A DNA stretch of 64,000 nucleotides from an uncultured bacterium. GTDB taxonomy: Bacteria > Schekmanbacteria > GWA2-38-11 > J061. The position numbers were made by a program, and so were the translations under genes. Positions 13,834 through 62,739 of the stretch are shown piece after piece. The stretch's first letter is position 1, and the number at the start of each line of letters is the position of its first letter. The DNA lies in NCBI GenBank assembly GCA_964549305.1, contig CAZJVM010000001.1, forward strand, positions 5,217 to 69,216, read 5' to 3'. The notes below the pieces were generated by a model. That model had not been told where the DNA came from, did not search any database, and was given only the letters and a program-made list of their open reading frames with translations.

Positions 13834-13921
13834 AAGGTTTTAACTTGCTATAATATATATATTTATTTTACTATGTCCAACGAAAAGTAACAAACAATAT
13901 CCATTCACTAATCGGACAATC

Positions 13922-15304
13922 ATGGAAGAAAAAAAGATTTTAGTTGTCGATGACGAAAAAGATATTCTTTCAATGATGTCAAAATTTCTCACCGAAAAGG
14001 GTTATCTCGTTTTTCAGGCGGATTGCCACAAAAAAGCACTCGAAATTGTCAAAAAAGAAGATATAGACCTTGCAATAATAGACCTCGTTATGCCTCAGAC
14101 AAACGGAATTACCGTGTTGAAGGAGCTACACCAGATAAATAGCAGTCTTATCGGTGTGATTGTGACAGGATTTGCTACAATTGATTCGGCAGTGGAGGCA
14201 ATGAAATCAGGCGCTTTTGATTATCTTCAAAAACCCTTCAACCTTGAAGAACTTTTGATGGTCATAAACAAAGCTCTTAAATTCAGAGAGCTTGAAGGGG
14301 AAAATATCTTTCTGAAATCTCAGCTTAAAAGGAAATACAAATTTGACAACTTTGTGGGGTCAAGCGAACCAATGCTTGAAGTTTTTAAAATTATTGAAAC
14401 AGTCGCAAATACTGACAGTACGGTATTGATTTTTGGTGAAAGCGGAACAGGCAAGGAGGTCGTGGCAAAATCCATACATTACAATTCAGGAAGAAGAAAT
14501 AACTATCTCGTACCTGTCAACTGCGGCGCAATTCCCGAAGACTTGCTTGAAACGGAGTTATTCGGACATGTTAAGGGAGCTTTTACCGGAGCCGTAAATA
14601 CGAGAGTCGGTCGTTTTGAGTTCGCTTCGGGAGGAACTATATTTCTTGATGAAATTGGAGATATGTCATTGAGCCTGCAGGTAAAGTTGCTTCGGGTTCT
14701 TCAGGAGAAAGAATTCACACCGGTGGGAGGATCCGCGCCCGTTAAGGTAGATGTGAGAGTGATTGCCGCAACAAATCAGAACCTTGAAAAGGCAGTGGAA
14801 GAGAAAAAATTTCGTGAAGACCTTTTCTACAGACTCAATGTCATCCCCCTGCAACTTCCTCCTTTGCGCGAAAGGAAAAGTGATATACCCCTGCTCGTGG
14901 ATTATTTTATCAGTCAGATGAAAAAAGAGAAAAAGGTGAGAGTCAAAGAGGTGTCAGATGATGTTATGCAAACCTTTATCGATTATGACTGGCCCGGAAA
15001 TGTGAGGGAATTGGAGAACCTCATAGAGAGAATGATGATATTTAGCGGAGACAAAGACCGTCTCACGGCAATTGATTTACCCGATAAATTCAAAAAAAGA
15101 AAAACCAAATCCCGTTCCTACCAAATTAGGCTTCCACTGGACGGACTTCCCCTAAAAAATGTCATCGGGCAAATAGAAGACGACCTTATTGTGCAGGCAT
15201 TGGAAAGGACTGGAGGTGTCAAGGAAAAGGCGGCAAAACTTTTAAAACTCAACCGCACCACGCTTGTCCAGAAAATAAAAAAAAGAAAAATCTCCGGCGG
15301 TTAA
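13922..15304 (+). CDS. Sigma-54-dependent two-component response regulator (NtrC family: REC + AAA+ + Fis-type HTH)
   Basis: Receiver domain ([10 protein letters not shown]...IDLVMP). AAA+ Walker A (GESGTGKE) and the sigma-54 contact motif GAFTGA ([10 protein letters not shown]). C-terminal HTH ([21 protein letters not shown]). Confidence 0.9.
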
Positions 15305-15492
15305 TATTCTTTTTTGAGTGCTCGTTTAATCCCTGAGCGTTAAAAAAATAACGCTTTCCATTTGAAACGGCAAAAAATTGCCTGTCTATGAGCATATAAT
15401 TCCTCTTGAAGTAGAAAAATACTTTTCTCTATAAAATTTATCTCATTGATTAATAAGAGAAAAATAAAATTTAGATATATTCCCCGCGTCTA

Positions 15493-15508
15493 TGGCATAT
15501 TTCTTGCT
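15493..15508 (+). promoter_or_regulatory. Candidate sigma-54 (-24/-12) promoter upstream of flhG-fliA
   Basis: TGGCATatttcTTGCT matches TGGCAC-N5-TTGCW, with GG and GC at canonical spacing. It lies about 37 nt upstream of the flhG start and immediately downstream of a sigma-54 activator gene. Confidence 0.5.
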
Positions 15509-15544
15509 TAATTCCTGAGAAAAACTTCTTTAACGGAAAAAATT

Positions 15545-16390
15545 TTGCTTAAAAATATGCCATCAAAAAAGATAATCAGTATTACAAGCGGAAAAGGAGG
15601 AGTCGGGAAAAGTACGCTTGTTTTTAACATTGCGTTGTCACTTAATAAACAGGGCGCCAATGTACTTGTTCTTGACGCGGATCTTTCCCTTGGAAATATG
15701 GACCTCTTTGCAGGAGTTAAACCTCTTTTTACGCTAAAAGATGTTTTTGATGGAAACAGAAGTCTTGATGATGTGGTAATAGAGGTTAAAAAGGGGTTGA
15801 AAATTATCCCCACTTCCTCCGGAGATGAAACACTTTGCAATCTTTCGGACAAGCAGGAGATAAATCTTGTTTCCGCTTTTGATAACCTGAAATCATCCTT
15901 TGATATTCTTCTCATAGATACGGATGCGGGTATCTCCGCAAATGTAATATATTTTTCGACAATATCTCAGGAAATTGTTCTTGTCATAACTCCTGATCCG
16001 GCATCGCTTCATGATTCTCTCGCGCTGATTAACCTTCTTTCGAATAAGTACGGAGAAAAATCTTTTAATGTCGTTGTTAACTGTGTGCGCACCAAAGAGG
16101 AGATGGGAAGCGTTTTTTCATCTTTCAGCAATATGGTGGACAAGGAAAACTGCAACGTGCGCCTGAACTATATGGGGGCTGTTCATTTTGACAATAAAAT
16201 GGTCGAGGCCGTCAAAAAACAATCGGCGGTGAGTGAGCTTTATCCCAAGTCCTTGTCGTCAAAAGATATTAAAAAAATCGCCGCAACGATAATGGCAATG
16301 CCTTCACAACCATTTCCAAAGGGAAATGTGCAGATTTTACTCGGAGATTTTTTGGAGCAAAGCAGAAACAAGGAAAAATATAACCTTTAA
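15545..16390 (+). CDS. flhG: MinD/ParA-family ATPase, FlhG (FleN)-like flagellar number regulator
   Basis: Deviant Walker A (SGKGGVGKST). A MinD-like protein immediately upstream of fliA, as in flhF-flhG-fliA loci. Confidence 0.7.
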   Translation: MLKNMPSKKIISITSGKGGVGKSTLVFNIALSLNKQGANVLVLDADLSLGNMDLFAGVKPLFTLKDVFDGNRSLDDVVIEVKKGLKIIPTSSGDETLCNLSDKQEINLVSAFDNLKSSFDILLIDTDAGISANVIYFSTISQEIVLVITPDPASLHDSLALINLLSNKYGEKSFNVVVNCVRTKEEMGSVFSSFSNMVDKENCNVRLNYMGAVHFDNKMVEAVKKQSAVSELYPKSLSSKDIKKIAATIMAMPSQPFPKGNVQILLGDFLEQSRNKEKYNL

Positions 16391-16405
16391 AAAGGGTATG
16401 GTACA

Positions 16406-17218
16406 ATGAAAAAAGTTATTTTAAAAAGGAAGTCGCGACGCAAAACGCTTAACAGTAAATTAGTAAACAGAGAAGAATTAATCGTTCAGTATTTGCCGCT
16501 AACGCGCTCGATTGCGGAAAGAATATCCACGAGACTCCCTAATAATGTTGAAATCGACGAGCTTGTTGCAGCCGGCATAATGGGATTGATGGATGCGGCA
16601 GACAAGTTTGACCCTTCCAAGCAGATTAAATTCAAAACATACGCCGAATTCAGGATAAGGGGCGCCATACTTGACGAACTGCGCGCGATGGACTGGCTTC
16701 CCAGGTCCCTGAGAAGAAAAACTTCCCAAATTGACAATGCCCGTTTCACTTTAGAACAGCAATTGGGGAGACACGCTACGGATAAAGAGGTCGCGGAGCA
16801 TATGAACATAGACATCGAAGAATTATATGATATGATAAACAGCGTAAAAGGAAAATCTCTTCTTTCTCTGGATGAACCGATAGACGGAGATTCAAAAAGC
16901 AGAACACTTCTTGAATGCCTTGTAAGCAAAGATTCTCAGGACCCGCATTCACTTGCAAGCTTAAAAGAAATGAAGGAGATGATAGCAAAGGCAATTGACC
17001 TTCTTCCGGAAAAGGAAAGGCTTGTAATTTCGCTTTACTACTATGAAGAACTGACTATGAAAGAAATAGGGCAGATTATGAATGTTACGGAGTCAAGAGT
17101 GTCACAGATTCACACAAAAGCCGCGATGTCGCTAAAATCGAAGCTTAAAAAAGTATCAAAAGAAAAATCGGTTCCTTCTTTTAAAACAACTGAATCCGCT
17201 TTCGGGAATTCAATATAA
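16406..17218 (+). CDS. fliA: RNA polymerase sigma factor sigma-28 (FliA/WhiG family)
   Basis: Sigma-70 region 2 (YAEFRIRGAILDELR), region 3 and region 4 (ISLYYYEELTMKEIGQIMNVTESRVSQIH) are present. Length is 270 aa. Confidence 0.85.
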   Translation: MKKVILKRKSRRKTLNSKLVNREELIVQYLPLTRSIAERISTRLPNNVEIDELVAAGIMGLMDAADKFDPSKQIKFKTYAEFRIRGAILDELRAMDWLPRSLRRKTSQIDNARFTLEQQLGRHATDKEVAEHMNIDIEELYDMINSVKGKSLLSLDEPIDGDSKSRTLLECLVSKDSQDPHSLASLKEMKEMIAKAIDLLPEKERLVISLYYYEELTMKEIGQIMNVTESRVSQIHTKAAMSLKSKLKKVSKEKSVPSFKTTESAFGNSI

Positions 17219-17224
17219 CAGATT

Positions 17225-17914
17225 ATGAGCGAACAAGATAAAAAAAAGGACATCCTTTTAAACATTCATCATACCTTTCTTTTGGGAAAAATCACAGGAG
17301 ATTTATTCCACGAAATCAATAATATGGTGGGGGCGTCAATTGGTTTTGCGCAACTTGCAAAAATGAGTATGGGCGAAGATGATGTGAATAAACTCATCGA
17401 TGTTGTTTTAAACTCCACGGAAAAAATCAAGGAAATAAGCAAATCCGCGCAGACCTACCTCAGTTATTCAAACAATAACGGGTCGCTTGTGGATATTTCA
17501 GATGTACTCTGCCACTGCGTTACATTGTCAAGAAAAAGCCTGATAAAACGGGGAATTAAAATATCTGATTGTGACAAAAAACTCATAGCTTTTCAAACCG
17601 ATGTAAGGACCTTGAAGCATGCCATTTTAAGTTTTATTTCCTTCATTACGGAGAATAACGAAATCGGCGGCACTCTTGATTTGAAAGCGGAAAAAATTAA
17701 TGAAACCCAGGTTAAGATTGAATTTTTTAAAGATGATTTATGCGTTGAAAAAATTAATGAAATTATACGCGATTTTGACAACCTGGATTTTATGGAAAAT
17801 TTGGAAAATGACTGTTATATGGCATTGTATTTGATTCAAAAAGTATTGGGCGCTTCCACGGAAATTTCAAAGTCAACCTTTTCATTTATCATTGACGAAA
17901 TCGTTTCCCAATAG
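17225..17914 (+). CDS. Degenerate histidine-kinase-like protein (HisKA-like H-box, ATP-binding boxes eroded); hypothetical regulator
   Basis: H-box-like segment (FHEINNMVGASIGFAQLA) and a partial N-box-like stretch (LKHAILSFISFITENN). No DxGxG or GxGxG G-boxes. It sits between fliA and flgM, 6 nt after the fliA stop. Confidence 0.45.
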   Translation: MSEQDKKKDILLNIHHTFLLGKITGDLFHEINNMVGASIGFAQLAKMSMGEDDVNKLIDVVLNSTEKIKEISKSAQTYLSYSNNNGSLVDISDVLCHCVTLSRKSLIKRGIKISDCDKKLIAFQTDVRTLKHAILSFISFITENNEIGGTLDLKAEKINETQVKIEFFKDDLCVEKINEIIRDFDNLDFMENLENDCYMALYLIQKVLGASTEISKSTFSFIIDEIVSQ

Positions 17915-40844: not shown

Positions 40845-40849
40845 AAGTC

Positions 40850-41139
40850 GCATGGTGGGAAATTTAAAATGGGAATTATTTAAATTTCCTATGGGGAAAA
40901 GAAAGAGAAAAAGAGTTTTTGAATAAAAGGTGAATGAATTACAAAATGAAAAAAAGTTTTAAAAATATATGGTTGTCGGTTTTGAAACAATATACACGGA
41001 TTATAAAATCCGATTTGTTCACCTTGAATAAGTCATACGATTGCGAAGAATTTGCTTTCTAACAGTCATATGAATAACTGATTATTTTCTTTTTCTAACT
41101 TAGTTTAGGCACTTATACGGTGTCCGGTTTCCCACCTGC
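40850..41139 (+). ncRNA. ssrS: Candidate 6S RNA (ssrS) between zapA and the 5-formyltetrahydrofolate cyclo-ligase gene
   Basis: A 345-nt non-coding gap separates the zapA stop (40844) from the likely ygfA start (41189), in the conserved zapA-ssrS-ygfA arrangement known from E. coli. A 12-bp long-range pairing (GCA-t-GGTGGGAAA at 40850-40862 with TTTCCCACC-TGC at 41128-41139) could form a closing stem. Internal hairpins GGAAATTTAA/TTAAATTTCC and CGGAT-tataaa-ATCCG are present. At ~290 nt this is longer than typical 6S RNA. Confidence 0.3.
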
Positions 41140-41188: not shown

Positions 41189-41755
41189 ATGCAGGCATTG
41201 AGGAAAAAACTGAATGTAGAAAGAGCTAAGACATATTCTGATATTGCCTGTAATAAACTTCTTTCATTTGCCCCTCTTTTAAGATCCGGCACGGTTTCCT
41301 GCTATTCCTCAAAACCTGAAGAATTACAGACAGACAAGCTCATTATCCGCCTTGTTGAAATAGGCAAAAAAGTTGCATTGCCTAAGGTTGACCAAAAAAA
41401 TAATAAAATGGACTTTTATTATATAAATTCTCCTGAAAAAGACCTGGAGACCGGTTTTATGGGAATAATGGAACCTAAAACGGGTTTGAAAAAGGTAGAA
41501 GATGTTACCGAAATTGATTTTACAATCATTCCCGCGCTTTCAGTTGATGTTGAAGGAAATCGAATCGGTTTCGGAGGCGGTTTTTTTGACAGATATTTTA
41601 AAAGCCGGGAGAAAAGAAATATATTGTGCGGATTGGTTTTCGATTTTCAAATTTTAGAATGTATCCCGTATGATTCCCGAGATGTAAAACTTGATTTTGT
41701 TATTTCTGAAAAAAGAATCATCTCTTGCGGGAAAGAAATAAGCAGAGTTCATTAA
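41189..41755 (+). CDS. ygfA: 5-formyltetrahydrofolate cyclo-ligase
   Basis: GFGGGFFDR motif and an N-terminal [11 protein letters not shown] region similar to B. subtilis YqgN. The start was moved to the internal ATG; the upstream GTG extension has no homology. Confidence 0.75.
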
Positions 41756-41775
41756 ACATAAAAGGAGGAATTTCG

Positions 41776-43347
41776 TTGGATAATATTAACATATATATTT
41801 TTTTAGTCATAGGTATTGTAGCAGGTGCTATCGTTACATACCTTCTGACTTATACAAACAGAAAGAAAGCGGCGCAAGATATAGAATCAACAAAGAAGGA
41901 AGCGGACAGGATAATTAGAGATTCAAAGAAGGAAGCGGAAACATTTACTAAAGAAAGCCGTATCGAGGCGAAAGAAACAATTCTGAAAGCAAGGACTGAT
42001 TTTGAAAAGGATACAAAAGAACAGAAAAAAGAACTTCAGCAACTGGAAAAACGTCTTGCGCAGAAAGAAGAAAATATAGACAGAAAAATTGATTTTCTTT
42101 CCAAGAAAGATCTCGACATACAGAATAAAGAAAAAGAGATGTCACAGAAAAACGATGACCTGAGAAAGTCGGAAGAGCACCTGAATGAACTAACATTCGA
42201 GTGCAAGAGACGCCTTGAAAAAATTTCCGGAATGAGCGGCGATGAAGCTAAAAAGATATTGATAGACAGCATCAGAGAAGAGGCAGATCACGAAGCGATG
42301 AAGTTTATCAGAAAAATCGAAGAAGGGGCAAAGGATACAGCACTGAGAAAAGCGCGTGAGATAGTCGCCACGGCAATCCAGAAAACGGCGTCAGATTATG
42401 TTGCGGAAACAACTGTGTCGGTTGTAGATCTGCCTTCAGATGAAATGAAAGGCAGAATAATAGGAAGAGAAGGCAGAAATATTCGTGCTTTTGAAATAGC
42501 GACCGGTGTAGACCTTATCATTGACGATACTCCGGAAGCGGTTATTCTTTCAGCGCACGATCCCGTAAAGAGGGAAATCGCGAAACGCACTCTTGAAAAA
42601 CTTATAAGCGACGGAAGAATTCACCCCGGGAAGATAGAAGAAGTATTGAATAAAATGGCGACTGAAGTTGAAGAGGATATCAGAGAGGAAGGAAATCAGT
42701 GCTGTCTTCTTCTTGGAATTCACGGGCTTCATTCCGAACTCGTTAAACATTTAGGTCGTCTTAAATTTCGCACGAGCTATGCTCAAAATGTTCTCGAACA
42801 CTCAAAGGAAGTGGCTTATTTGTGTTCGATTATGGCATCTGAACTCGGTGTTGACCCCGTGCTGGCTAAAAGGGCCGGACTTCTTCACGATATCGGAAAG
42901 GCAGTCGACCATCAGGTTGAAGGTTCTCATGCGGTTATTGGCGCCGATATAGCGCAGAAATTCGGCGAAAAACCAAATGTGGTAAACGCTATCAAAGCTC
43001 ATCACGAAGAAGAAAGCCCCCTTAGCGTAGAAGCGGTTTTACTTCAGGCGGGAGACGCGCTTTCAGCGGCAAGACCCGGGGCGAGAAGAGAAATGCTTGA
43101 ATCCTACATCAAGCGTCTGGAAAAGCTCGAACAGCTTGCCGATTCATTTAACGGAGTTGATAAATCCTTCGCGATTCAGGCAGGAAGAGAGATTCGGATT
43201 ATCGTGAATAACGATGATTTGTCAGATGACCAGACATATTCTCTTGCAAGGGATATTGCCAAAAAAATTGAAAAGGAGCTTTCATATCCGGGGCAGATTA
43301 AAGTAACTGCCATAAGGGAAACGAGAGCCGTTGAATACGCAAAATAA
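41776..43347 (+). CDS. rny: Ribonuclease Y
   Basis: Alignable to B. subtilis RNase Y along its length: N-terminal TM, coiled coil, KH domain ([27 protein letters not shown]) and HD domain ([11 protein letters not shown]), ending [13 protein letters not shown] start at 41776 with an AAAGGAGG Shine-Dalgarno. Confidence 0.9.
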
Positions 43348-43376: not shown

Positions 43377-44183
43377 TTAATCGTTCAGACCGGTAATCTT
43401 TTCTTCAATATCTGTCAACGCCCTTGAAAGGTTGTTGAGCGTTCTTCTCGCGTCCAGTATCTTGTCTTCAAGGTCTGCAATTGACTTTGTAATATATTTG
43501 TTGTTGCTGTTTCCATTGCCGTTACCGTTTGCGGGAATGACTTTTGTAGATTTGTTTGCAGTCGTCTCATAGGCTCGACTTTTGTTTACAATCGGTTTTT
43601 TCGACAATTGAACCTGTTCGATTGTTTTTTTGGAGATACATTTCAAGGTTTCAAATACGCCTTCTCCCCTGATTGCCGAAGACGCGAATGAATCAAGTCC
43701 CATAGGGTTTATAATCGCATTCAGCTCATCGATTGACGAAATTTCCTCGAGGTCTCTCTTGTTGTATTGAAAAACTATGGGGATGCTGTCTATGCTCAGT
43801 CCGCTTTCCTGTAAATTGATTTTCAGGTCTTCAAAACTTTCAAGGTTTGCCTCAACCTGATCCTTCTGAGAGTCTGCGACAAATACAACGGCATCAACGC
43901 CTTTAAGGACAAGCTTTCTCGTAGAAGTCAACTGTACCTGACCGGGAGTTGTGTAAAGTTGAATTTTTATGTTCATCCCTCTGATTTTTCCAAGATTCAT
44001 CGGCAGCAAATCAAAGAAAAGGGTGCGGTCGGTTTCAGTGCGCATCGATAAGAGTTTTCCTCTCGTCTCGGGGTCGCTTTTGTTGTAAATAAATTCGAGA
44101 TTGGTGGTTTTTCCGCCCCTCGCGGGACCGTAGTACACGATTTTTATTATTGCTTCATCTAAAGCAACATTGAATATAGCCAT
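43377..44183 (-). CDS. mglA: MglA-like Ras-family small GTPase with ~70-aa C-terminal low-complexity/coiled-coil extension
   Basis: N-terminal 195 aa align closely with Myxococcus MglA: KIVYYGPARGGKTTNLEFIYNK, TETDRTLFFDLLP, LYTTPGQV, LKGVDAVVFVADSQ, QYNKRDL. The extension contains NGNGNGNSNN and a predicted coiled coil. No mglB gene is adjacent. Confidence 0.8.
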   Translation of the reverse strand: MAIFNVALDEAIIKIVYYGPARGGKTTNLEFIYNKSDPETRGKLLSMRTETDRTLFFDLLPMNLGKIRGMNIKIQLYTTPGQVQLTSTRKLVLKGVDAVVFVADSQKDQVEANLESFEDLKINLQESGLSIDSIPIVFQYNKRDLEEISSIDELNAIINPMGLDSFASSAIRGEGVFETLKCISKKTIEQVQLSKKPIVNKSRAYETTANKSTKVIPANGNGNGNSNNKYITKSIADLEDKILDARRTLNNLSRALTDIEEKITGLND

Positions 44184-44519
44184 ACTCGTAAATGGGAAAA
44201 GTGTTATATATCAGTTGGTTATATTTTGATTTCGGATTCTCTTATTTTGCCTGTTAAGTAGATAATTCTATCGGACAAAATTTGAAAAATAAGAAACATT
44301 TTTTAAAAAAACACTTGTTTTGGAATTCATTTTTACGCTTTGGGAAAATCCTCGTCGAATTACCGCAACGCTTTTTCAAATATATCGGCAATGGGAGAAA
44401 AATAAGAAAAAATTCAGGGAGAATCTTGTATTTCGTGAAGAAGAATTACACTGTGGAAACGATATTAATACTGCAGGTTTCCTATTAAAGAAACGGTGTA
44501 ACAGCGATATTGAAAAACA

Positions 44520-44546
44520 TTGACAAATAGTGATTATTTGTATAAT
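44520..44546 (+). promoter_or_regulatory. Candidate sigma-70 promoter for truB-rpsO-pnp
   Basis: TTGACA-15 nt-TATAAT (TTGACAaatagtgattatttgTATAATtatact), about 85 nt upstream of the probable truB start. Confidence 0.4.
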
Positions 44547-44630
44547 TATACTCTCCTTTAAATGAAAGTATTAGCATATACCCATTTCACTGAAGCTGAT
44601 TCGGCGGAAGATGATTTAAGAAGACATCAT

Positions 44631-45557
44631 ATGGATGGTGCAATAACCCTTTTTAAACCTTCGGGCATCACATCCTTTAAGGCGACGGAACAGGTTAAAC
44701 GGATTACAGGGGTAAAGAAATGCGGTCATGGCGGGACTCTTGACCCTGTAGCGGAAGGAGTGCTTCCCATATTCCTCGGAAAAGCCACAAAAGTCATTCC
44801 CTTTATAAAAAATAATGACAAAGCTTATTCCGCGACCATTAAACTCGGAGTTGAAACGGATACGATGGACTGCGAAGGGAAGGTTGTTTCGGAAAACCCG
44901 GCAATAGTGCCTTCCTTTGATGAAGTGGAAAAGGCGGTTTCCTGTTTTGAGGGAGAGATTAGCCAGAGACCTCCCATCTATTCAGCGCTGAGATACAAGG
45001 GGAAACGACTATACGAGTATGCAAGGAAGAATATAGAGATCGAGGTAAAGAAACGCAAAGTAATTATTGATAAGATTGAAATAGTGTTCTATAAGTATCC
45101 TCTTTTAAAAATTAATGTTTACTGTTCTTCCGGCACATATATAAGAAGCCTTGCCCACGATATCGGGGAAGTGCTTGGATGCGGAGGACACATAGTCGGG
45201 TTGCTGAGAACGAAAAGCGGTGATTTCCATATAAAGGAAGCCGTAAATATTGATTCCCTGAAGTCAGAATCGTCGCGAAAGGCGCTGAAAAGCCATATAA
45301 AGGGAATCGATGAGATACTCGCAGGATACGGAGAAGTGAAAGTTTCAGATGAAGTGAAACAAAAGGTACTCTGCGGTTCGCCTGTCGAAATGGATGATGT
45401 AACTGCAATCGGAGACTGCATTGCCGTCACAAGATTGTTGAAAGTTAAGGATTCGGACAATAACCTTTTGGCTATTGCCGAGATTGTTTCAGTTAAAGCC
45501 GACACTACCGGTTCTGAAAAGAATTTAATTTTAAAAATGAAAAGAGTATTTAATTGA
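44631..45557 (+). CDS. truB: tRNA pseudouridine(55) synthase
   Basis: The catalytic Asp motif GHGGTLDPVAEGVLPIFLGKATK and a C-terminal PUA domain are present. The start was moved to the internal ATG (MDGAITLFKPSG), matching the TruB N-terminus. Confidence 0.85.
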   Translation: MDGAITLFKPSGITSFKATEQVKRITGVKKCGHGGTLDPVAEGVLPIFLGKATKVIPFIKNNDKAYSATIKLGVETDTMDCEGKVVSENPAIVPSFDEVEKAVSCFEGEISQRPPIYSALRYKGKRLYEYARKNIEIEVKKRKVIIDKIEIVFYKYPLLKINVYCSSGTYIRSLAHDIGEVLGCGGHIVGLLRTKSGDFHIKEAVNIDSLKSESSRKALKSHIKGIDEILAGYGEVKVSDEVKQKVLCGSPVEMDDVTAIGDCIAVTRLLKVKDSDNNLLAIAEIVSVKADTTGSEKNLILKMKRVFN

Positions 45558-56978: not shown

Positions 56979-57341
56979 AAAGAATGAAGTTTATGGCAAC
57001 AGAGTATAATGACTGAAAGTGCAAGTTGTCAATAATCATAAAAATAAAAACCGGGCAAACAATTTGTAGCTTATAAAAGCATCAGAGGGTGTCAGGAAGA
57101 AAGCATATTCTATATCAATCATTTGTTGCTCACAGCGACGATAAATGGTTTGTAAATACAGCAGGTTAGCTATCATTGCTATGTCCTTTAAATGATTGTT
57201 TGCTATGCTATCTAATTGATTTATCAATAAATAAATTGTTTTTTCGCGGTAAAAAAAATATTTTATTGGATATGAGATTAAAGGTTTTTAAGGAAAGTGG
57301 CGACAATATATGGTATAAATGCTGCTAATGGGGGAGGTGGC

Positions 57342-57788
57342 ATGAAAAAAATATCGCTTAAAAAATCTGAAGACGCGTTTACACTTGTAGAAATTCTTGT
57401 TGCCATAGTAATCCTTTCTGTAGGACTTCTCTCAATAGCAAGTTTGGTTACAACTGTTATCAGGGGTAACGCAAAGAGCAGGCGAATGACTACGGCAATA
57501 ACTCTTGCGCAAACGAAAATAGAAGAGTTGAAAAATCTGGATTATGACGATAGCAAACTCGAAGATTCAAATACGGGCAACAATTCAAGCCTTACAAGCA
57601 CATCATCCACTGACCACAGCGAAGCGGATATAGACGCGGAAGGGGGAACAGGGGGAATTTATACGAGAATATGGAATGTTGCCGATGACACTCCTTCAAC
57701 GAATATGAAAACTATTACGGTTATCATAAAGTGGGAAGAAAAGGGCAAGGAAAGAAAGACTGCGTTTACAACTATAATATCGGAATGA
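57342..57788 (+). CDS. pilV: Type IV pilus minor pilin, PilV-like (prepilin-type N-terminal domain)
   Basis: MKKISLKKSEDA|FTLVEILVAIVILSVGLLSIASL: class III signal with Glu at +5, PilV-like (compare Pseudomonas PilV ...GFSMIEVLVALLVLAIGVLGLASL). A strong GGGGGAGG Shine-Dalgarno lies upstream. Ala rather than Gly at -1 is atypical. Confidence 0.6.
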   Translation: MKKISLKKSEDAFTLVEILVAIVILSVGLLSIASLVTTVIRGNAKSRRMTTAITLAQTKIEELKNLDYDDSKLEDSNTGNNSSLTSTSSTDHSEADIDAEGGTGGIYTRIWNVADDTPSTNMKTITVIIKWEEKGKERKTAFTTIISE

Positions 57789-57797
57789 GGATGAAAA

Positions 57798-58703
57798 GTG
57801 CGCGTGAAAAATAACAGGAATGGATTTACGCTTATAGAGTTGATGGTGTCGATACTTCTCGCATCTATACTTATGGTTACATTTTATACTCTTCTTACCA
57901 GTCAGCAGAGAACATACAACAGTCAGGATTTGATTGTTGAAATGCAGCAAAATGTGAGGACGGCAATGGATACTTTGACGAGGGAATTCAGGTCAATCGG
58001 ATACGGAGTGCCTACTGCCGACACCCCTTCGGAAATTGCCGTTATAAGCAGCGCGACGGAAAACACCATAACCTTTCTCGTTGACCTTGATAATGTGAAG
58101 GCGACACTTACTGCCGACTACACGGCAGGAAATACTACTCTTTCCGTTGACACGGTGTCGGAGACATCTTCCGACAGTTATTATGGCAATTTTTCCGCAG
58201 GTGATACAATATATATAACTGACGGAAGCAAGTGGGAAGCCACTGACGTGTCATCTACTTCCCAGGGGAGTTTGGGTATCGGGGCTTTAACCAATGATTT
58301 TTCCCAGGGGTCGGTGCTTCACGTAATCAACACAATTACGTATGCCCAGAATCCATCCGACCACAAACATTCGACTGATGCGCCAACCATTAAATTGACG
58401 CGGTCTGTTGACGGAAGCACGGCACAACCGGTAGTCGATGACATTGATTATCTTGAATTCAAATACTATGATGATTCGGACAGTCAGGTCGGTTCAGCGA
58501 CTCCATACAAGAGTGTAAGTTTATCTTCCGGTGATGTAGGCGACGTAAGGAAAATAAAAGTTCTTTTTATCGCGCGAACATCGAGAGAAGATCCAAGCTA
58601 CTCGAGTTCCGGGGTCTATAACTGCGGCGACAAATACAGCGACCAATATCACAGATTAACACTGGAATCGGAAATAAAATTAAGAAATGCAGGATTGGAA
58701 TGA
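57798..58703 (+). CDS. pilW: Type IV pilus minor pilin, PilW-like
   Basis: MRVKNNRNG|FTLIELMVSILLASILMV is a canonical prepilin leader and methylation motif. PilW-like length (301 aa) and position after pilV. GTG start. Confidence 0.65.
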   Translation: MRVKNNRNGFTLIELMVSILLASILMVTFYTLLTSQQRTYNSQDLIVEMQQNVRTAMDTLTREFRSIGYGVPTADTPSEIAVISSATENTITFLVDLDNVKATLTADYTAGNTTLSVDTVSETSSDSYYGNFSAGDTIYITDGSKWEATDVSSTSQGSLGIGALTNDFSQGSVLHVINTITYAQNPSDHKHSTDAPTIKLTRSVDGSTAQPVVDDIDYLEFKYYDDSDSQVGSATPYKSVSLSSGDVGDVRKIKVLFIARTSREDPSYSSSGVYNCGDKYSDQYHRLTLESEIKLRNAGLE

Positions 58704-58704
58704 T

Positions 58705-59766
58705 ATGAAAAATAACAAAATGTTAAGCAATGAGTCGGGATTTGTCCTTGCACTTGCAATGTTTCTTCTTGCTATTCTCACTGTGATCGGTCTCGGCGCG
58801 ATTTTGATTACATCGACAGAGCTTAAGATATCGGGGAATCTCAGAACTGCTACCGATGCCCTGTATGTGGCAGAGGGAGGTATGGAAATTACTGAAGGAA
58901 AATTGAAGGCAAACGCAGTGAGCAATTTTGCAGGAACAAGCGGGACAACAAGCAATACGCAGATTTATGTCGTAGGAAAATCACCTAAAAACACCATTAA
59001 AAATCCTTTAAACTGGGTTGACACAAGCTGGTATATAGATTCGGATATGACCACGCCCCTGTCCGAGGGCAATGCGGAAACCGTGACTGCTCTTTATAAC
59101 AAATATACTATTGGTTCCGGGGAAGCCAATATTACACTGCCAAGACCTCAGTGGTTGTGGGTAAATCCCACGATTGTGGCGTTCAGAAACGTCAGGTCCA
59201 CATTCTCGGGAACAAATGCCAAAAAAGTGGAAGCGGATATTGAAATAAGATTTGAAAATAATCTCCTTTCCTTTCAGGTGTTCAAAGACCCTTCTGACGG
59301 TGTATCCGATGTTGACAATATTTCCAACAACAATGTTATAATAGGAGGTACAGGTTATGATTTTGGAATCGATCCTGCATTAAGCAAGATTACGGGAATT
59401 TGCACGAACGATAACAGTACGAAAGCTATTATAATTTATAGGGATGGGGACAACAATTTAGCGACTTCAGACTGGACAATAGTCGGAGAACCGGAGATTA
59501 ACACGACTAACAGTACATTTTGCCTCAGCAATGCGAGAGGTTACAGATATACAGCTTTGGGTGGTGCCGGGTCAAAAGAACCGGTAGCGGTTTTAAGCGC
59601 AAGCGAATATATTCCCGATACTACGGGCGCGCCTGTTTTGTCAATCAGTAACGGGGAAATTTACAAGGTTGAACTTGTCGATATATCTATGCTTTCACGA
59701 AGTGCCGGAAATCCGGCGGGTTCATCGGCAGGAAGCTGGGTGTCGAATACTTATAATCAATGGTAA
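58705..59766 (+). CDS. pilX: Type IV pilus minor pilin, PilX-like (PilX_N domain)
   Basis: ESGFVLALAMFLLAILTVIGLGAILITSTELKISGN matches the PilX N-terminal domain consensus (QRGxALxVALxxLLxLTLLGxxAxxxxxLxExMAGN). The start was moved to the ATG after the pilW stop. Confidence 0.6.
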   Translation: MKNNKMLSNESGFVLALAMFLLAILTVIGLGAILITSTELKISGNLRTATDALYVAEGGMEITEGKLKANAVSNFAGTSGTTSNTQIYVVGKSPKNTIKNPLNWVDTSWYIDSDMTTPLSEGNAETVTALYNKYTIGSGEANITLPRPQWLWVNPTIVAFRNVRSTFSGTNAKKVEADIEIRFENNLLSFQVFKDPSDGVSDVDNISNNNVIIGGTGYDFGIDPALSKITGICTNDNSTKAIIIYRDGDNNLATSDWTIVGEPEINTTNSTFCLSNARGYRYTALGGAGSKEPVAVLSASEYIPDTTGAPVLSISNGEIYKVELVDISMLSRSAGNPAGSSAGSWVSNTYNQW

Positions 59767-59790
59767 ACAAAAATATTAAAGGAGAATAAA

Positions 59791-59988
59791 ATGTTTAAAA
59801 ATCTGATTTGGGTTTTAATGACTTTTCTGGCATTAGCGGTTGTAATAACCTTTTCAACAGTGACAACGCGTGCCGATTCTGATACAAATTCAGCGAGTAA
59901 TATGAATGCTCCGGTAAACGGCGCGCAGGGGACAGGCACCAATGCCGAGCCGAACTCGACAATAAAAAACTGGCACGAAGTAAATTAA
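59791..59988 (+). CDS. Small secreted peptide precursor, paralog A (signal peptide, N/S/T/G-rich core, conserved C-terminal STIKNWHEVN)
   Basis: 65 aa. AAAGGAG Shine-Dalgarno 6 nt upstream. Sec-type signal peptide (MFKNLIWVLMTFLALAVVITFSTVTTRA). The mature part is ~37 aa. Confidence 0.6.
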   Translation: MFKNLIWVLMTFLALAVVITFSTVTTRADSDTNSASNMNAPVNGAQGTGTNAEPNSTIKNWHEVN

Positions 59989-60031
59989 TGATGTATTTGT
60001 ATAAATAAGATATATAAGAACGGAGGTTAAA

Positions 60032-60214
60032 ATGGCAAAAATAGTTAAAATGGTTTTGATATTACTCGTGTCAGGATTGATGAGCGCAACATTTACATTT
60101 GCAGTTACCACAAATTCAGACAGCAACTCAAACGCGAATGTTAATGGAGGAGGCGGACAGACTCAGCCATTTACGCCTTCTACTACAATAAAGAACTGGC
60201 ACGAAGTCAAATAA
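60032..60214 (+). CDS. Small secreted peptide precursor, paralog B (conserved C-terminal TTIKNWHEVK)
   Basis: 60 aa. GGAGG Shine-Dalgarno 5 nt upstream. Signal peptide (MAKIVKMVLILLVSGLMSATFTFAVTT). It shares with paralog A the pattern TF(S/T)xAVTTx(A/S)DSxxN...(S/T)TIKNWHEV(N/K). Confidence 0.6.
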   Translation: MAKIVKMVLILLVSGLMSATFTFAVTTNSDSNSNANVNGGGGQTQPFTPSTTIKNWHEVK

Positions 60215-60317
60215 TTCAAATATTCCTGCATACATATAAGTAAATTTTACGTTGCGGACTGTCACTATAGTTGATTATCCCAACCGTTCACTTATTGTTC
60301 AGGCAGAGAGTCTAATA

Positions 60318-61238
60318 TTGAAGAAATTCCTTTTTCTTTTATTTCTTGTCATAGTCACGGCATTTTCAGGGTGTCACCGCATAAGCGATAATGAGCTTAG
60401 TGACGTGGAGTCCGCAATAGAGTCAAAAGATTACAATCGTGCTTTGACAACTCTTTCACAACTCGCGGAAAAATATAAGGGAGATGCAATTGTCCATTAT
60501 CTTTCGGGATACTGCTTTTTAAAAAAAGAAGACAACGAAGCGGCACTCAAAGCATTCAAAAGGACTTTTGATATAAGAAAAAATTACTCCGCAATGGTAG
60601 GTGATGTTGATGTGGCGAATTTTCTCGCCGGAAACAGTTTGTCGGCGGAAAACCCTTTCTTCAAGGGAGCGATGAGAGAACTCGATACGATTATAAGCAA
60701 AAACAGCGGGGGCGAAACGGAAGAAAGAATTCGCTATCACAAGGCATCGCTTCTTCTTTTAAAAGACAAATATGATAAAGCAATCGATGAACTTGAAAAG
60801 ATAATTGAAAATAAAGTAGTGTCTCCTTATGATGCAAAAGCATATTTGAAAATTGGAGAAATCACCGCTCAATATTTACAAAATGAAGATAAGGGACTTA
60901 GTATTATCAGCGCGCTTATTGACAAATATCCCAATGACAGGGAAACTTTGGCAGAGTCAATGATTTGGATTGCAGAATATAAGATTAAACGCGCGAATAT
61001 GCTTAAAAAGAGGATCGAATCCCTCGAAGATTTTATCGAGTCATGGAAAGGGATAAAAGGGTTTCAGGAGGATATCAAAGAGGCAGTTGTGCAGATAGGG
61101 TCCGATAGTAAAAGCAGAAACAAATGTATTGCTGAAGCAAAGGAATATATTGATAAAATCAACAGGGAATATGCGGGAAGCAATTTTGCCGAAAGGACAA
61201 AAATGCTTTTAAGTGGCCTAAATGCAGTTAACCGGTAA
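60318..61238 (+). CDS. TPR-repeat lipoprotein
   Basis: TTG start, then LKKFLFLLFLVIVTAFSGC, a lipobox with Cys. TPR-like helical repeats fill the rest of the protein. Confidence 0.5.
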   Translation: MKKFLFLLFLVIVTAFSGCHRISDNELSDVESAIESKDYNRALTTLSQLAEKYKGDAIVHYLSGYCFLKKEDNEAALKAFKRTFDIRKNYSAMVGDVDVANFLAGNSLSAENPFFKGAMRELDTIISKNSGGETEERIRYHKASLLLLKDKYDKAIDELEKIIENKVVSPYDAKAYLKIGEITAQYLQNEDKGLSIISALIDKYPNDRETLAESMIWIAEYKIKRANMLKKRIESLEDFIESWKGIKGFQEDIKEAVVQIGSDSKSRNKCIAEAKEYIDKINREYAGSNFAERTKMLLSGLNAVNR

Positions 61239-62739
61239 AGGGTTCACTGTGAAAGATGCAAATCTGAAAACAAAAATCACAAAATACCTCCTTGTGGCAA
61301 TGACACTTCTTTTTCTTTTCTTTCTCCTGTTCAACATTCAGTATTCATATGAGGGGATAGTAGGTTACGACGGTTATTACCACATTAAAATAGCAAAAAA
61401 TATGGGAGAGAAAGGAGTTCTATCTCCCGATGCGTCGCTGATGTATCTTCCGGGAGGTGAGCAATTTGTTGACCATCACTACCTCTATCACATACTGCTT
61501 ATACCATTCACCTTTTCCAATCTCATTGACGGTGCCAAGAATTCGGCTATATTTTTTGATATGCTTCTGCTGATGGTTTTATCGTATATTTTGATAAAGC
61601 TTGATGTTAAAAATCCATATCTCTGGATTCTTGTACTCTTCTCTTTGTCTGAAACGTTTATCTTCAGGTTGTCTCTTCCGCGCGCAACTATACCTTCGCT
61701 AATAATCCTCATTTTAGCCTGGTATTTTATGATAAAGGAAAAATATATTCCTCTGGCAGGATTATCCTTACTTTTCCCGAGTTTCTACGGAGGATATACG
61801 GCGATTTTTATACCTCTCTCTGCTGTCATATGTTCTGTATATATAAGGAATAAACGATTTAATTACAAAGTGGTTATTGCTGTTATATCAGGTGTTACAT
61901 TAGGTAATATAATTAATCCTTTTTTTCCCGACAACCTGAAATTTATCTATCTTCAGACTACTTCTGCGGGACTTTTCAGAGTGGCAAGAGGTGGTTCGGA
62001 GTGGATGTCATTTGCGCCGGAAGAATTTATAAGGACGCAGTTTGCTTTTATCTTTCTTTTTTTGGTTACGCTTTATATTGCGGCAATTGACGACAAAAAG
62101 ATGAATAAGGAGGCATTGTCCCTTTTCTTTATCTCCCTTCCTTTGATTGCAATCAGTTTTTTCTGGCGAAGATTTATAGAATTGTCGGTGCCCTTTTCAT
62201 TGCTCTTTTCGGCAACGGTTTTCAGAGATTGCACTTTGGATAATATTACGGGATTTAGTAAGGGGGGTAAAAAAATATCGTCTGCTCTCGTGATATTCCT
62301 CACGGTCTTTTTCAGCGCGGGGAGTTATTATACGGCAAAATCGGCAACCGAGGAGATTAAATCGGATTTTCGTTCTCCCGGAAGGTACAGTCAGGGAGCA
62401 AAATGGATTTACGAAAATGCTCCGGGAATACCTGTGTATCTTACCGATTGGGATGACTATCCGGAACTCTATTTTTATAATTCCTTTAATAGGTATCTTA
62501 TAGGTCTTGACCCCGCGTTTCTCTATATTTATGATAAAGAAATGTATAAAATATGGATAGAAATTAATGCCGGAAAATATAAGGGCGATTTAAAGAAGGC
62601 GTTTACTGAAGTATTTAAAACCCCGCTAATATTTACTGACAATACTCACGGTGATTTTGTAAGATATAGTTCCGGATATGATTGGATTAAATTGCGATAC
62701 AGCGATTCCTATTGTAAAATATACAGCATTATTCCCTGA
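61222..62739 (+). CDS. Polytopic membrane protein with GT-C-like architecture (~11-12 TM helices plus ~130-aa C-terminal extracytoplasmic domain); putative glycosyltransferase
   Basis: The first loop after TM1 carries an acidic/aromatic motif (EGIVGYDGYYH). Many TM helices follow. The C-terminal soluble domain begins LTDWDDYPELYFY, reminiscent of the WWDYG motif position in STT3/PglB-type transferases. This was judged by eye only. Confidence 0.4.
   Translation: MQLTGKGFTVKDANLKTKITKYLLVAMTLLFLFFLLFNIQYSYEGIVGYDGYYHIKIAKNMGEKGVLSPDASLMYLPGGEQFVDHHYLYHILLIPFTFSNLIDGAKNSAIFFDMLLLMVLSYILIKLDVKNPYLWILVLFSLSETFIFRLSLPRATIPSLIILILAWYFMIKEKYIPLAGLSLLFPSFYGGYTAIFIPLSAVICSVYIRNKRFNYKVVIAVISGVTLGNIINPFFPDNLKFIYLQTTSAGLFRVARGGSEWMSFAPEEFIRTQFAFIFLFLVTLYIAAIDDKKMNKEALSLFFISLPLIAISFFWRRFIELSVPFSLLFSATVFRDCTLDNITGFSKGGKKISSALVIFLTVFFSAGSYYTAKSATEEIKSDFRSPGRYSQGAKWIYENAPGIPVYLTDWDDYPELYFYNSFNRYLIGLDPAFLYIYDKEMYKIWIEINAGKYKGDLKKAFTEVFKTPLIFTDNTHGDFVRYSSGYDWIKLRYSDSYCKIYSIIP

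What the first reader, a model, noticed from the sequence alone, without database searches (positions are those of the whole stretch)
43377..44183. Orphan MglA-like polarity GTPase with a C-terminal NG-repeat/coiled-coil extension and no adjacent mglB
The first ~195 aa are strikingly similar to Myxococcus MglA, including the Ras-like motifs and characteristic insertions. In myxobacteria and most other carriers, mglA is paired with its GAP gene mglB. Here the gene stands alone between rny and truB. It also carries a ~70-aa tail with (NG)n low complexity and a predicted coiled coil. The tail could substitute for partner or effector binding. It may be linked to the type IV pilus genes in this window (polarity control of twitching).
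Basis: partly seen in the sequence, partly recalled or inferred. Interest (0 to 1): 0.55.

Follow-up and report, generated by a model that had tools for sequence, protein, structure and literature searches.

The report
Lone MglA GTPase with coiled-coil tail
This is a real MglA-type polarity GTPase from an uncultured Schekmanbacteria genome that has no nearby partner gene mglB, a natural change at the GTP-hydrolysis glycine and a conserved coiled-coil tail, making it a modest new variant of an already described "MglB-less" MglA type.

Summary
Window 43377-44183 (minus strand) encodes a 268-aa protein. Residues 1-193 are an MglA G domain: 52% identical to M. xanthus MglA with no gaps, and TM 0.94 to PDB 6izw_A. 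No Roadblock/MglB gene was found in the 64-kb window or next to orthologs in five other Schekmanbacteria lineages.

The P-loop reads GPARGGKTT, so Gly21 (the Ras Gly12 equivalent) is Ala, and this is fixed in all 20 clade members. MglB-less MglAs with A/S21, such as Bdellovibrio's, are already described.

The tail has two parts. The linker, including the NG run, is disordered, variable and not conserved. The last ~38 residues form an unbroken five-heptad coiled coil that is kept in every ortholog.

The suggested link to type IV pili is not supported by synteny. The minor-pilin genes lie 13 kb away behind housekeeping genes, and only the rny side of the locus is conserved.

Best reading: a GAP-independent, mostly GTP-bound MglA that is tethered or dimerised through its own coiled coil.

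I could not test whether mglB is absent from the whole genome.

Extended MglAs are common in this protein's sequence neighbourhood and rarely sit next to mglB.

Verdict: new variant of a known kind, moderate-to-low interest.

The parts
43377..44183 (-). Complete mglA-like gene (268 aa plus stop codon), apparently monocistronic
   Evidence: ORF list. Identical protein P0001 is in NCBI on a 110-kb contig. MglA matches.
43605..44183 (-). MglA-type Ras-like G domain (residues 1-193)
   Evidence: 52% identity to M. xanthus MglA with no gaps. Foldseek TM 0.94 to 6izw_A. AF2 pLDDT is mostly 80-92 outside the switch loops.
44103..44129 (-). P-loop GPARGGKTT (residues 19-27). Codon 21 (44121-44123, GCG) encodes Ala where canonical MglA has Gly (the Ras Gly12 equivalent).
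   Evidence: Read directly from the sequence. A21 is found in 20/20 clade members, against G21 in 109/109 other homologs compared.
44025..44027 (-). Codon for Arg53, the intrinsic arginine finger in switch I (TETDRTLFFD), retained
   Evidence: Invariant column R53 in alignment A1. Its role is taken from PMC6876712.
43938..43952 (-). G3/switch II motif T78-T-P-G-Q82: the MglA-specific Thr78 and the catalytic Gln82 are retained. The motif is followed by V83 and Q84, where canonical MglA has Phe84.
   Evidence: F84->Q/K is fixed in the clade but is not diagnostic of MglB loss.
43500..43604 (-). Variable, disordered linker (residues 194-228), including the NG-rich run ANGNGNGNSNN (residues 218-228, 43500-43532)
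   Evidence: AF2 pLDDT is ~33 over residues 196-225. Identity to orthologs is 3-31% and linker length ranges from 11 to 43 aa. The NG run is present only here, with remnants in P0002 and P0003.
43386..43499 (-). Conserved C-terminal coiled-coil helix (residues 229-266, five heptads; a = I,I,L,L,I and d = I,L,A,L,I,L)
   Evidence: In the window protein all a/d positions are hydrophobic, against 14% of the other positions. None of 20000 shuffles reaches this contrast. The same register is found in all orthologs. AF2 predicts a single helix at 226-266 with pLDDT 78-85. Identity in the near clade is 47-63%, against 14-31% for the linker.
41725..43347 (+). rny (RNase Y), convergent neighbour. It is the only neighbour conserved across Schekmanbacteria, as part of the block zapB-zapA-5-FTHF cyclo-ligase-rny. 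This is context, not a functional part.
   Evidence: Pfam RNase_Y_N/KH/HD. Synteny in L001, L003, L005 and L089.
44184..44561 (.). 378-bp non-coding spacer between the mglA-like start codon and the divergent truB. It presumably holds both promoters and contains no mglB-like ORF.
   Evidence: The promoter scan is no better than shuffled sequence.

Best explanation
The gene is the Schekmanbacteria ortholog of the polarity GTPase MglA (Group 1 of the MglA family) in a GAP-independent form. Three things are shown. First, it has an intact MglA fold and catalytic set (Arg53, Thr78, Gln82, NKxD). Second, there is a phylum-wide Gly21->Ala change at the Ras-Gly12 position. Third, no mglB lies at the locus in any lineage examined. 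Three steps are inferred. (a) A side chain at position 21 hinders placement of the intrinsic arginine finger, as in Ras G12 mutants and MglA G21V. Hydrolysis would then be slow and insensitive to a GAP, and the protein would sit mainly in the GTP-bound 'on' state. This has been proposed for Bdellovibrio MglA (Ser21, no MglB). (b) Without a GAP-driven cycle to place the protein in the cell, the appended module takes over placement: a flexible linker of variable length, then a five-heptad coiled coil. The module either dimerises the GTPase or tethers it to a coiled-coil or polar scaffold. (c) The G domain stays free to bind effectors such as type IV pilus regulators. The NG-rich run is just linker.
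For: Identity as MglA. A21 is fixed in 20/20 clade sequences, against G21 in 109/109 other homologs. No MglB was found in the 64-kb window or within +-10 kb of orthologs in L001, L003, L005, L089 and L090, using Pfam, phmmer, tblastn and a converged MglB profile that does detect 43 MglBs in 19 other loci. Literature: of 9 MglA-bearing species lacking MglB, 5 have A/S21, and Bdellovibrio MglA S21 is argued to be GTP-locked (PMC3983030). G21V lowers kcat about 7-fold in Thermus MglA (PMC3000849). Tail: the heptad pattern is kept in all orthologs although helix identity falls to ~21-32% in the distant Schekmanbacteria lineages. The linker is free to vary from 11 to 43 aa. AF2 predicts a disordered linker followed by a confident helix. 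Family-wide, extended MglAs had MglB within 5 kb in 0 of 38 loci, against 11 of 19 for short MglAs. This fits the idea that built-in C-terminal modules and a trans-acting MglB are alternative designs.
Against: Ala is the smallest possible substitution, and its effect on MglA hydrolysis has never been measured. One A21 MglA (L049, Caldisericota) does have an adjacent mglB, so A21 alone does not exclude GAP coupling. Genome-wide absence of mglB, romR and romX in the source genome was not testable. The oligomeric state and the partner of the coiled coil are unknown, since AF2 was run on a monomer only. The allosteric pocket residues L64, I67, K181 and K185, which receive the MglB/RomR acidic helix in M. 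xanthus, are all conserved here, which might mean a trans regulator still exists. The 0/38 versus 11/19 contrast is inflated by relatedness, because 10 of the coupled loci are Gemmatimonadota. Two extended MglAs on short contigs (L012, L019) do have an adjacent mglB.
Confidence: 0.5

Rival explanations
1. It is an ordinary cycling MglA whose GAP (MglB) and GEF (RomR/RomX-like) are encoded elsewhere in the genome. A21 only tunes the hydrolysis rate, and the coiled coil is an extra effector-docking element.
For: A21 coexists with an adjacent mglB in L049. K84 coexists with mglB in L082. The allosteric pocket residues L64, I67, K181 and K185 that bind the MglB/RomR acidic helix are intact. Arg53 and Gln82 are retained, so the hydrolysis machinery is still under selection. 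In Wuichet 2014, 'orphan' only means not within four genes.
Against: Coupled mglA-mglB pairs are normally adjacent: 390 of 449 in Wuichet 2014, and 0-25 bp apart in my loci. None of six Schekmanbacteria loci shows one. A21 is fixed across the phylum and matches the published A/S21 and no-MglB association.
Confidence: 0.27
2. It is an accessory paralog (SofG-like in role) that coexists with a separate canonical MglA/MglB pair in the same genome and does a specialised job.
For: M. xanthus has such an arrangement, with the orphan SofG alongside MglA/MglB. Only part of the genome is visible here.
Against: Its identity to M. xanthus MglA is high (52%, no gaps), and it has no N-terminal extension. 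All Schekmanbacteria-labelled MglA homologs retrieved are of this A21 plus coiled-coil type and occupy one syntenic slot, which indicates a single orthologous lineage. No G21 MglA labelled Schekmanbacteria appeared among the top 120 hits.
Confidence: 0.1
3. The whole tail is non-functional: a low-complexity expansion, a read-through, or an assembly or fusion artefact.
For: The linker and NG run are poorly conserved and predicted to be disordered. No Pfam family matches the tail.
Against: The terminal helix keeps an unbroken heptad register in every ortholog from independent assemblies (NCBI MAGs, ENA, Logan), across about 50% overall divergence. It is 2-4 times better conserved than the linker. 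The heptad contrast was reached by none of 20000 shuffles.
Confidence: 0.04

Closest known systems
Myxococcus xanthus / Thermus thermophilus MglA (MglA family Group 1; PDB 6izw, 6h17, 3t12)
   Same: Same fold (TM 0.94) and 52% identity without gaps. It shares the intrinsic Arg53 finger, Thr78 in G3, the catalytic Gln82 and the NKxD motif. The allosteric pocket residues L64, I67, K181 and K185 are conserved.
   Different: Gly21 is Ala. There is no adjacent mglB. Switch II Phe84 is Gln. It has a 75-aa C-terminal addition (linker plus coiled coil) that the 195-aa proteins lack.
Bdellovibrio bacteriovorus MglA (Bd3734): Ser21, no MglB in the genome, controls pilus-dependent prey invasion at one pole (Milner et al. 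2014, PMC3983030)
   Same: It has a non-glycine residue at position 21 and no mglB at the locus. It belongs to the published 'A/S21 with no MglB' class.
   Different: The residue is Ala rather than Ser. Bdellovibrio MglA is a single-domain protein without a coiled-coil tail. Genome-wide absence of MglB, and the presence of RomR or a TPR partner, are not established here.
SofG of M. xanthus (orphan MglA-family GTPase with terminal extensions; Bulyha et al. 2013, cited in PMC4316618)
   Same: It is an orphan MglA-family GTPase that carries extra sequence beyond the G domain and has been linked to type IV pilus ATPase positioning.
   Different: From my own knowledge, SofG is much more divergent from MglA and has an N-terminal extension. 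The window protein has none and is a close MglA ortholog.
Undescribed 'long MglA' proteins in metagenomes (320-800 aa): G21 forms with an unannotated C-terminal domain, and A21 forms fused to GAF-HisKA-HATPase_c
   Same: They have an MglA G domain followed by a C-terminal extension and usually no adjacent mglB: 0 of 38 loci with adequate flanks. A few others combine A21 with a coiled-coil-like end (P0248), or G21 with a similar coiled coil (P0017, P0033).
   Different: Their extensions are longer (median ~234 aa) and unrelated in sequence. The Schekmanbacteria form has only a linker plus one 38-aa coiled coil, and only P0004 aligns through the tail in the exhaustive search.

Membership tests
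MglA family, Group 1 (Wuichet & Sogaard-Andersen 2014) | Ras-like G domain with end-to-end similarity to characterised MglA proteins | tested here: met
   E 2e-61 to 6hjh/6h17/5ymx. 52% identity with 0 gaps. Foldseek TM 0.94 and rmsd 1.6 A to 6izw_A.
MglA family, Group 1 (Wuichet & Sogaard-Andersen 2014) | Intrinsic arginine finger (Arg53) and Thr54 in switch I | tested here: met
   TETDRTLFFD is retained. R53 and T54 are invariant columns in A1. Their role is taken from PMC6876712.
MglA family, Group 1 (Wuichet & Sogaard-Andersen 2014) | Thr78 in place of the Ras-type Asp in G3 (TxxGQ), with the catalytic Gln82 | tested here: met
   YTTPGQ at residues 77-82. The Thr78 hallmark is described in PMC3000849 (abstract listed; paper read).
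MglA family, Group 1 (Wuichet & Sogaard-Andersen 2014) | Canonical G4 motif [NT]KxD | tested here: met
   N141-K-R-D144. The Group 1 consensus is taken.
MglA family, Group 1 (Wuichet & Sogaard-Andersen 2014) | P-loop GxxxxGKT with Gly at position 21 | tested here: not met
   The P-loop is GPARGGKTT, with A21 (codon GCG at 44121-44123). A21 occurs in 20/20 clade members, against G in 109/109 other homologs.
Coupled MglA/MglB GTPase-GAP module | A Roadblock/LC7 (MglB) gene within four genes of mglA | tested here: not met
   None was found in the 64-kb window or in the Schekmanbacteria loci L001-L006, L089 and L090. Methods: Pfam, precomputed Pfam on neighbouring genes, phmmer/tblastn and a converged MglB profile.
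Coupled MglA/MglB GTPase-GAP module | An MglB encoded anywhere in the genome | not testable with these tools
   Only the window and +-10 kb around orthologs can be read. The source genome was not returned by the genome-contig scan, and its proteins are not indexed by position.
MglB-independent A/S21 MglA (Bdellovibrio type, Milner et al. 2014) | A non-glycine residue (Ala or Ser) at position 21 | tested here: met
   Ala21. The class is described in PMC3983030.
MglB-independent A/S21 MglA (Bdellovibrio type, Milner et al. 2014) | A slow-hydrolysing, GAP-insensitive GTPase that is locked in the GTP-bound state | not testable with these tools
   This needs GTPase assays on wild-type and A21G protein. 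The only evidence is by analogy with G21V and Ras G12 substitutions.
MglB-independent A/S21 MglA (Bdellovibrio type, Milner et al. 2014) | Works with RomR and a TPR partner to control type IV pili at one pole | not tested
   The window ORFs scanned include no RomR-like protein (receiver domain plus disordered Glu-rich tail). The receiver-domain proteins present are a hybrid kinase and an NtrC-type activator. The rest of the genome could not be examined.
Canonical left-handed coiled coil | An unbroken heptad repeat with hydrophobic a/d positions over at least 4 heptads, predicted to be helical | tested here: met
   In the window protein a/d positions are 100% hydrophobic, against 14% elsewhere. 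Across the ten sequences scored (eight Schekmanbacteria orthologs plus P0017 and P0033) the a/d figure is 0.82-1.0. None of 20000 shuffles reaches the observed contrast. AF2 predicts a helix at 226-266 with pLDDT 78-85.
Canonical left-handed coiled coil | Forms a homo- or hetero-oligomeric helical bundle | not testable with these tools
   Only monomer prediction is available. There are no multimer models and no biophysical data.

The most novel reading that the evidence does not exclude
The coiled-coil tail may be a built-in substitute for the trans-acting MglB/RomR positioning system. On this reading, MglA-family GTPases come in two mutually exclusive designs. One is the short form, cycled by an adjacent Roadblock GAP. 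The other is the C-terminally extended form, which carries its own targeting or regulatory module and has dispensed with MglB. The Schekmanbacteria protein would be the minimal version of the second design: an A21 'always-on' G domain, a flexible tether and one dimerising or anchoring coiled coil. A sharper variant is that the acidic N-terminal half of the helix (ADLEDKILD) docks in cis into the conserved allosteric pocket (L64, I67, K181, K185) that normally receives the acidic C-terminal helix of MglB or RomR, and so autoregulates nucleotide exchange.
Probability: 0.15. Interest if true: 0.6.

Novelty: new variant of a known kind. Interest (0 to 1): 0.35.

Why it matters
If the reading is right, it extends the 'residue-21 substitution goes with loss of MglB' rule from Bdellovibrio to a whole uncultured phylum. 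It also offers a very compact natural example of a Ras-like polarity GTPase that is positioned by its own coiled coil rather than by a GAP/GEF cycle.

The comparison set suggests a wider point. C-terminally extended MglAs make up the bulk of this protein's sequence neighbourhood in metagenomes and are almost never next to mglB. The literature I searched does not describe this class. Testing that either/or pattern systematically would say something general about how bacterial small GTPases are regulated.

For this single gene the gain is incremental. The organism is uncultured and no phenotype can be attached.

Tried and rejected
1. Type IV pilus linkage by gene order: rejected. The pilin-like genes are 13 kb away behind truB, rpsO, pnp, an M16 peptidase and purB/C/L, and that side of the locus is not conserved in orthologs.

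2. The co-oriented partial ORF 44 bp upstream of the closest ortholog (L089) as a hidden mglB: rejected. It has no Pfam or MglB-profile match, it is a singleton among 5.8 billion proteins, and it is absent from the window and from L090.

3. Switch II Phe84->Gln/Lys as a marker of a lost MglB interface: not informative. K84 occurs in an MglB-coupled MglA (L082), and residue 84 varies widely.

4. A 6S RNA in the zapA to 5-FTHF-ligase gap, as in E. coli: Rfam found nothing credible.

5. Promoter and terminator scan around the gene: no better than shuffled sequence.

6. Locating the source genome: the exact-protein position look-up failed, and the genome-contig scan returned no Schekmanbacteria. 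Genome-wide searches for mglB, romR and romX were therefore impossible.

7. Literature search for a described MglA with a C-terminal coiled coil, or for a GTDB-wide MglA/MglB survey: nothing found.

8. Pfam and NCBIfam on the tail: only insignificant coiled-coil noise.

9. I ran no further search on MglB. Only 120 top hits are listed, so a Schekmanbacteria MglB would almost certainly not surface, and a negative result would carry no information.
Full report

Yes. Window 43377..44183 holds a 268-aa ORF on the minus strand. An identical protein (P0001) exists in NCBI on a 110-kb contig.

Residues 2-190 match the crystal-structure sequences of M. xanthus MglA at E ~2e-61 and T. thermophilus MglA at 3e-52. 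The next best PDB hits (Arl and Rab proteins) are at 1e-4. BLASTP against M. xanthus MglA gives 52% identity, 71% positives and no gaps over 191 residues.

An AlphaFold2 model built on a 23-sequence alignment superposes on 6izw_A (MglA-GTPgammaS) with TM 0.94 and rmsd 1.6 A. Fourteen MglA chains rank ahead of any Rab.

Pfam and NCBIfam have no MglA-specific model and report only weak Arf, Ras or small_GTP matches.

The flanking genes are as stated, verified by Pfam. rny lies at 41725-43347, convergent, with its stop codon 29 bp from the mglA-like stop codon. truB lies at 44562-45557, divergent, beyond a 378-bp spacer.

**2.

The P-loop reads GPARGGKTT, where M. xanthus has GPGLCGKTT. Position 21, the equivalent of Ras Gly12, is therefore Ala (codon GCG, 44121-44123).

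All 20 members of the clade that I could retrieve have Ala21. All 109 other MglA homologs in the same comparison have Gly21.

The rest of the catalytic set is intact: the intrinsic arginine finger Arg53, Thr54, the MglA-specific Thr78, Gln82 and the NKRD motif.

Other changes fixed in the clade are C23G/S, F84Q/K (in switch II) and G98A. I tested whether residue 84 tracks MglB coupling and it does not: K84 occurs in an MglB-coupled protein.

**3. Whose gene is it, and is the arrangement conserved?**

The closest homologs are labelled Candidatus Schekmanbacteria:
- P0002, 76% identity, 261 aa
- P0004, 62% identity, 269 aa, on a 650-kb contig of GCA_016219965.1
- P0016 and P0121, 275 aa
- P0124, 247 aa

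In four independent lineages the gene occupies the same slot, convergent with rny at the end of the block thrS-infC-rpmI-rplT-pheS-pheT-zapB-zapA-5-FTHF cyclo-ligase-rny. These are therefore orthologs.

The other side of the gene varies. It is truB in the window, birA in L001, L003 and L005, ETF genes in L090, and an orphan partial ORF in L089.

**4. Is mglB there?**

Not locally.

- Pfam scans of 30 window ORFs, including every small or unannotated one, found no Robl_LC7 domain.
- I recalled the M. xanthus MglB sequence from memory and verified it as identical to PDB 6h5b chain B.
- phmmer and tblastn with that sequence against all six frames of the window and of the related loci found nothing better than E 1.3.
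- An MglB profile, iterated to convergence on 89 sequences (the window plus 88 fetched loci), recovered 43 MglBs in 19 loci. It found none in the window or in any Schekmanbacteria locus.

The co-oriented ORF 44 bp upstream of P0002's gene sits where mglB sits in M. xanthus. It matches neither Pfam nor the MglB profile. It is a singleton in a 5.8-billion-protein database, so it is not a conserved partner.

I could not test genome-wide absence. The source genome is not retrievable with these tools.

**5. The tail**

Alignment of the orthologs shows two parts.

*Linker, residues 194-228.*
- It is 11-43 aa long in different lineages.
- It is 3-31% identical to the window sequence.
- AF2 predicts it to be disordered, with pLDDT ~33.
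- The run ANGNGNGNSNN (residues 218-228) is present only here. Remnants (KNGNG, KNGNSNN) occur in the two closest relatives.
- Its codons are mixed (GGT/GGC/GGA, AAC/AAT), so it is not a fresh slippage product.

*Helix, residues ~229-266.*
- It shows an unbroken 3-4 hydrophobic spacing over five heptads.
- In the window protein all a/d positions are hydrophobic, against 14% of the other positions. None of 20000 shuffles of the same residues reaches that contrast.
- The same register is present in every Schekmanbacteria ortholog (a/d hydrophobic 0.82-1.0). This holds even though helix identity falls to 21-32% in the distant Schekmanbacteria lineages.
- Within the near clade the helix is 47-63% identical, against 14-31% for the linker.
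- AF2 predicts one continuous helix at 226-266 with pLDDT 78-85.

So the coiled coil is under selection and the NG run is not. That condition is not met, because the tail helix is conserved.

**6. How unusual is this?**

*Orphan status.* It is less unusual than the finding implies. Orphan MglAs made up 59 of 449 family members in the 2014 survey (PMC4316618). Milner et al. noted that of 9 MglA-bearing species lacking MglB, 5 have Ala or Ser at position 21. They argued that Bdellovibrio MglA (Ser21) is permanently GTP-bound and no longer needs a GAP (PMC3983030). G21V lowers kcat about 7-fold in Thermus MglA (quoted in PMC3000849). The window gene fits this known class.

*C-terminal extension.* Extensions are also common.
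- Among the best 120 database hits, most are 320-460 aa.
- In an exhaustive HMMER search of 1.84 billion cluster representatives, 1,922 clusters match at E<=1e-30. All 150 top representatives carry tails of 41-618 aa, with a median of 234.
- In 57 loci with at least 1.5 kb of flank on both sides, extended MglAs had an MglB within 5 kb in 0 of 38 cases, against 11 of 19 for short MglAs (Fisher p ~4e-7).

Three caveats apply to that contrast. The sample was seeded from this protein. Ten of the coupled loci are Gemmatimonadota. Two extended proteins on short contigs (L012, L019) do have an adjacent mglB.

*What is specific here.* The minimal form of the extension (a linker plus one coiled coil) combined with A21 is fixed across a phylum. 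Only P0004 aligns through the tail in the exhaustive search. I found no paper describing an MglA with a C-terminal coiled coil.

**7. Mechanism**

*Shown.*
- An intact MglA fold and catalytic residues.
- Ala21.
- No local mglB.
- A conserved coiled coil on a flexible tether.

*Inferred.* The Ala side chain impedes insertion of Arg53 next to the gamma-phosphate. Hydrolysis is then slow and GAP-insensitive, and the protein is mostly GTP-bound. Position in the cell would be set by the coiled coil rather than by a GAP/GEF cycle, either through homodimerisation or through attachment to a coiled-coil or polar scaffold. The a = Ile/Leu and d = Leu/Ile/Ala pattern would suit a parallel dimer, which is my reading and untested. 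Effectors would be expected to be type IV pilus or other polar machinery, by homology to M. xanthus and Bdellovibrio only.

*A more speculative option.* The allosteric pocket that binds the acidic C-terminal helix of MglB or RomR in M. xanthus is formed by L64, I67, K181 and K185 (PMC6785124). All four residues are conserved here. The first half of the tail helix is acidic (ADLEDKILD), so docking in cis is conceivable. The tool returns no contacts or PAE, so I could not test it.

*Points against the main reading.*
- Ala is the mildest substitution, and its effect on MglA has never been measured.
- L049 (Caldisericota) combines A21 with an adjacent mglB.
- The intact pocket could equally mean that a trans regulator still exists.

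**8. The link to type IV pili**

The window does encode pilin-like proteins at 57297-59766 on the plus strand (N_methyl, PilW, PilX_N), and a PilZ-domain protein at 2875-3744.

The pilin genes are 13 kb from the GTPase gene. They lie on the other strand and beyond truB, rpsO, pnp, an M16 peptidase, purB, purC and purL. That flank is not conserved in the orthologous loci. Proximity therefore gives no support. Any connection to pili rests on homology alone.

**9. Verdict**

The gene is a bona fide MglA ortholog of the published 'A/S21 without MglB' kind, here fixed in Candidatus Schekmanbacteria. It carries a conserved C-terminal coiled coil, which I did not find described.

I rate it a new variant of a known kind, with interest 0.35. 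The most useful follow-ups are a whole-genome search for mglB, romR and romX in the Schekmanbacteria MAGs, GTPase assays on wild-type and A21G protein, and a test of the oligomeric state with and without residues 229-268.

Noticed in passing
L021, L023, L024, L026 (Ca. Sulfomarinibacteraceae) and L072, L076 (Thermoanaerobaculia/Acidobacteria); e.g. L024:9920-12145 (+): Proteins of 724-731 aa have an MglA-like G domain with Ala21 (GPAVGGKTT or GPALGGKTT) fused to GAF, HisKA and HATPase_c, i.e. a small-GTPase domain fused to a histidine kinase. No MglB lies within 5 kb. Pfam on the L024 protein: HATPase_c E 3e-23, GAF_2 1.5e-10, HisKA 6e-07.
   Followed up: partly
P0006-P0120, P0133-P0280; loci L007, L009-L088: Most MglA homologs nearest to this protein are 'long MglAs' (320-800 aa) with canonical G21 and C-terminal extensions that match no Pfam family. 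Several subfamilies end in a conserved small domain (e.g. ...RIEDEDRQVVEAIRDLPIEIQDAKTLERVLLQLNVALKSKD). All 150 top representatives in the exhaustive search are extended. In loci with adequate flanks, 0 of 38 extended MglAs against 11 of 19 short ones have MglB within 5 kb.
   Followed up: partly
L049:9992-10576 (Caldisericota MAG): A short (192 aa) MglA with Ala21 (GPAMSGKTT) has an adjacent MglB gene 11 bp away. This is a counter-example to the 'A/S21 means no MglB' rule.
   Followed up: no
L008:517-3101 (GCA_964443105.1): A G21 MglA (P0017, 323 aa) has a coiled-coil segment similar to the Schekmanbacteria tail. It sits between a TPR-repeat protein and a Ser/Thr protein kinase, all co-oriented, which makes them possible partners.
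   Followed up: no
L089:3-380 (+), upstream of the P0002 mglA-like gene: A partial 125-aa ORF lies 44 bp upstream and is co-oriented with the mglA-like gene. It has no Pfam match and no homolog other than itself among 5.8 billion proteins. It is absent from the window.
   Followed up: yes
window 40845-41119: A 275-bp non-coding gap lies between zapA and the 5-FTHF cyclo-ligase gene, which is where E. coli carries the 6S RNA gene ssrS. Rfam finds no 6S RNA at gathering or relaxed thresholds, only chance snoRNA-model hits. A comparable gap is present in the orthologous loci.
   Followed up: partly
window 11470-17914: This is a regulatory cluster. It contains a PAS-PAS hybrid histidine kinase with a receiver domain (11470-13833, minus strand), an NtrC-type sigma-54 activator (13922-15304), a ParA/MinD-like ATPase (15545-16390), a sigma-70-family factor with regions 2, 3 and 4 (16406-17218, FliA-like in layout), and an unannotated 229-aa protein (17225-17914).
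   Followed up: partly
window 57297-62739 and 2875-3744: Pilin-like genes (N_methyl; PilW; PilX_N) are followed by a TPR protein (60252-61238) and an unannotated 505-aa protein (61222-62739). A PilZ-domain protein lies at 2875-3744 on the minus strand. None is syntenic with the mglA-like gene in other genomes.
   Followed up: partly
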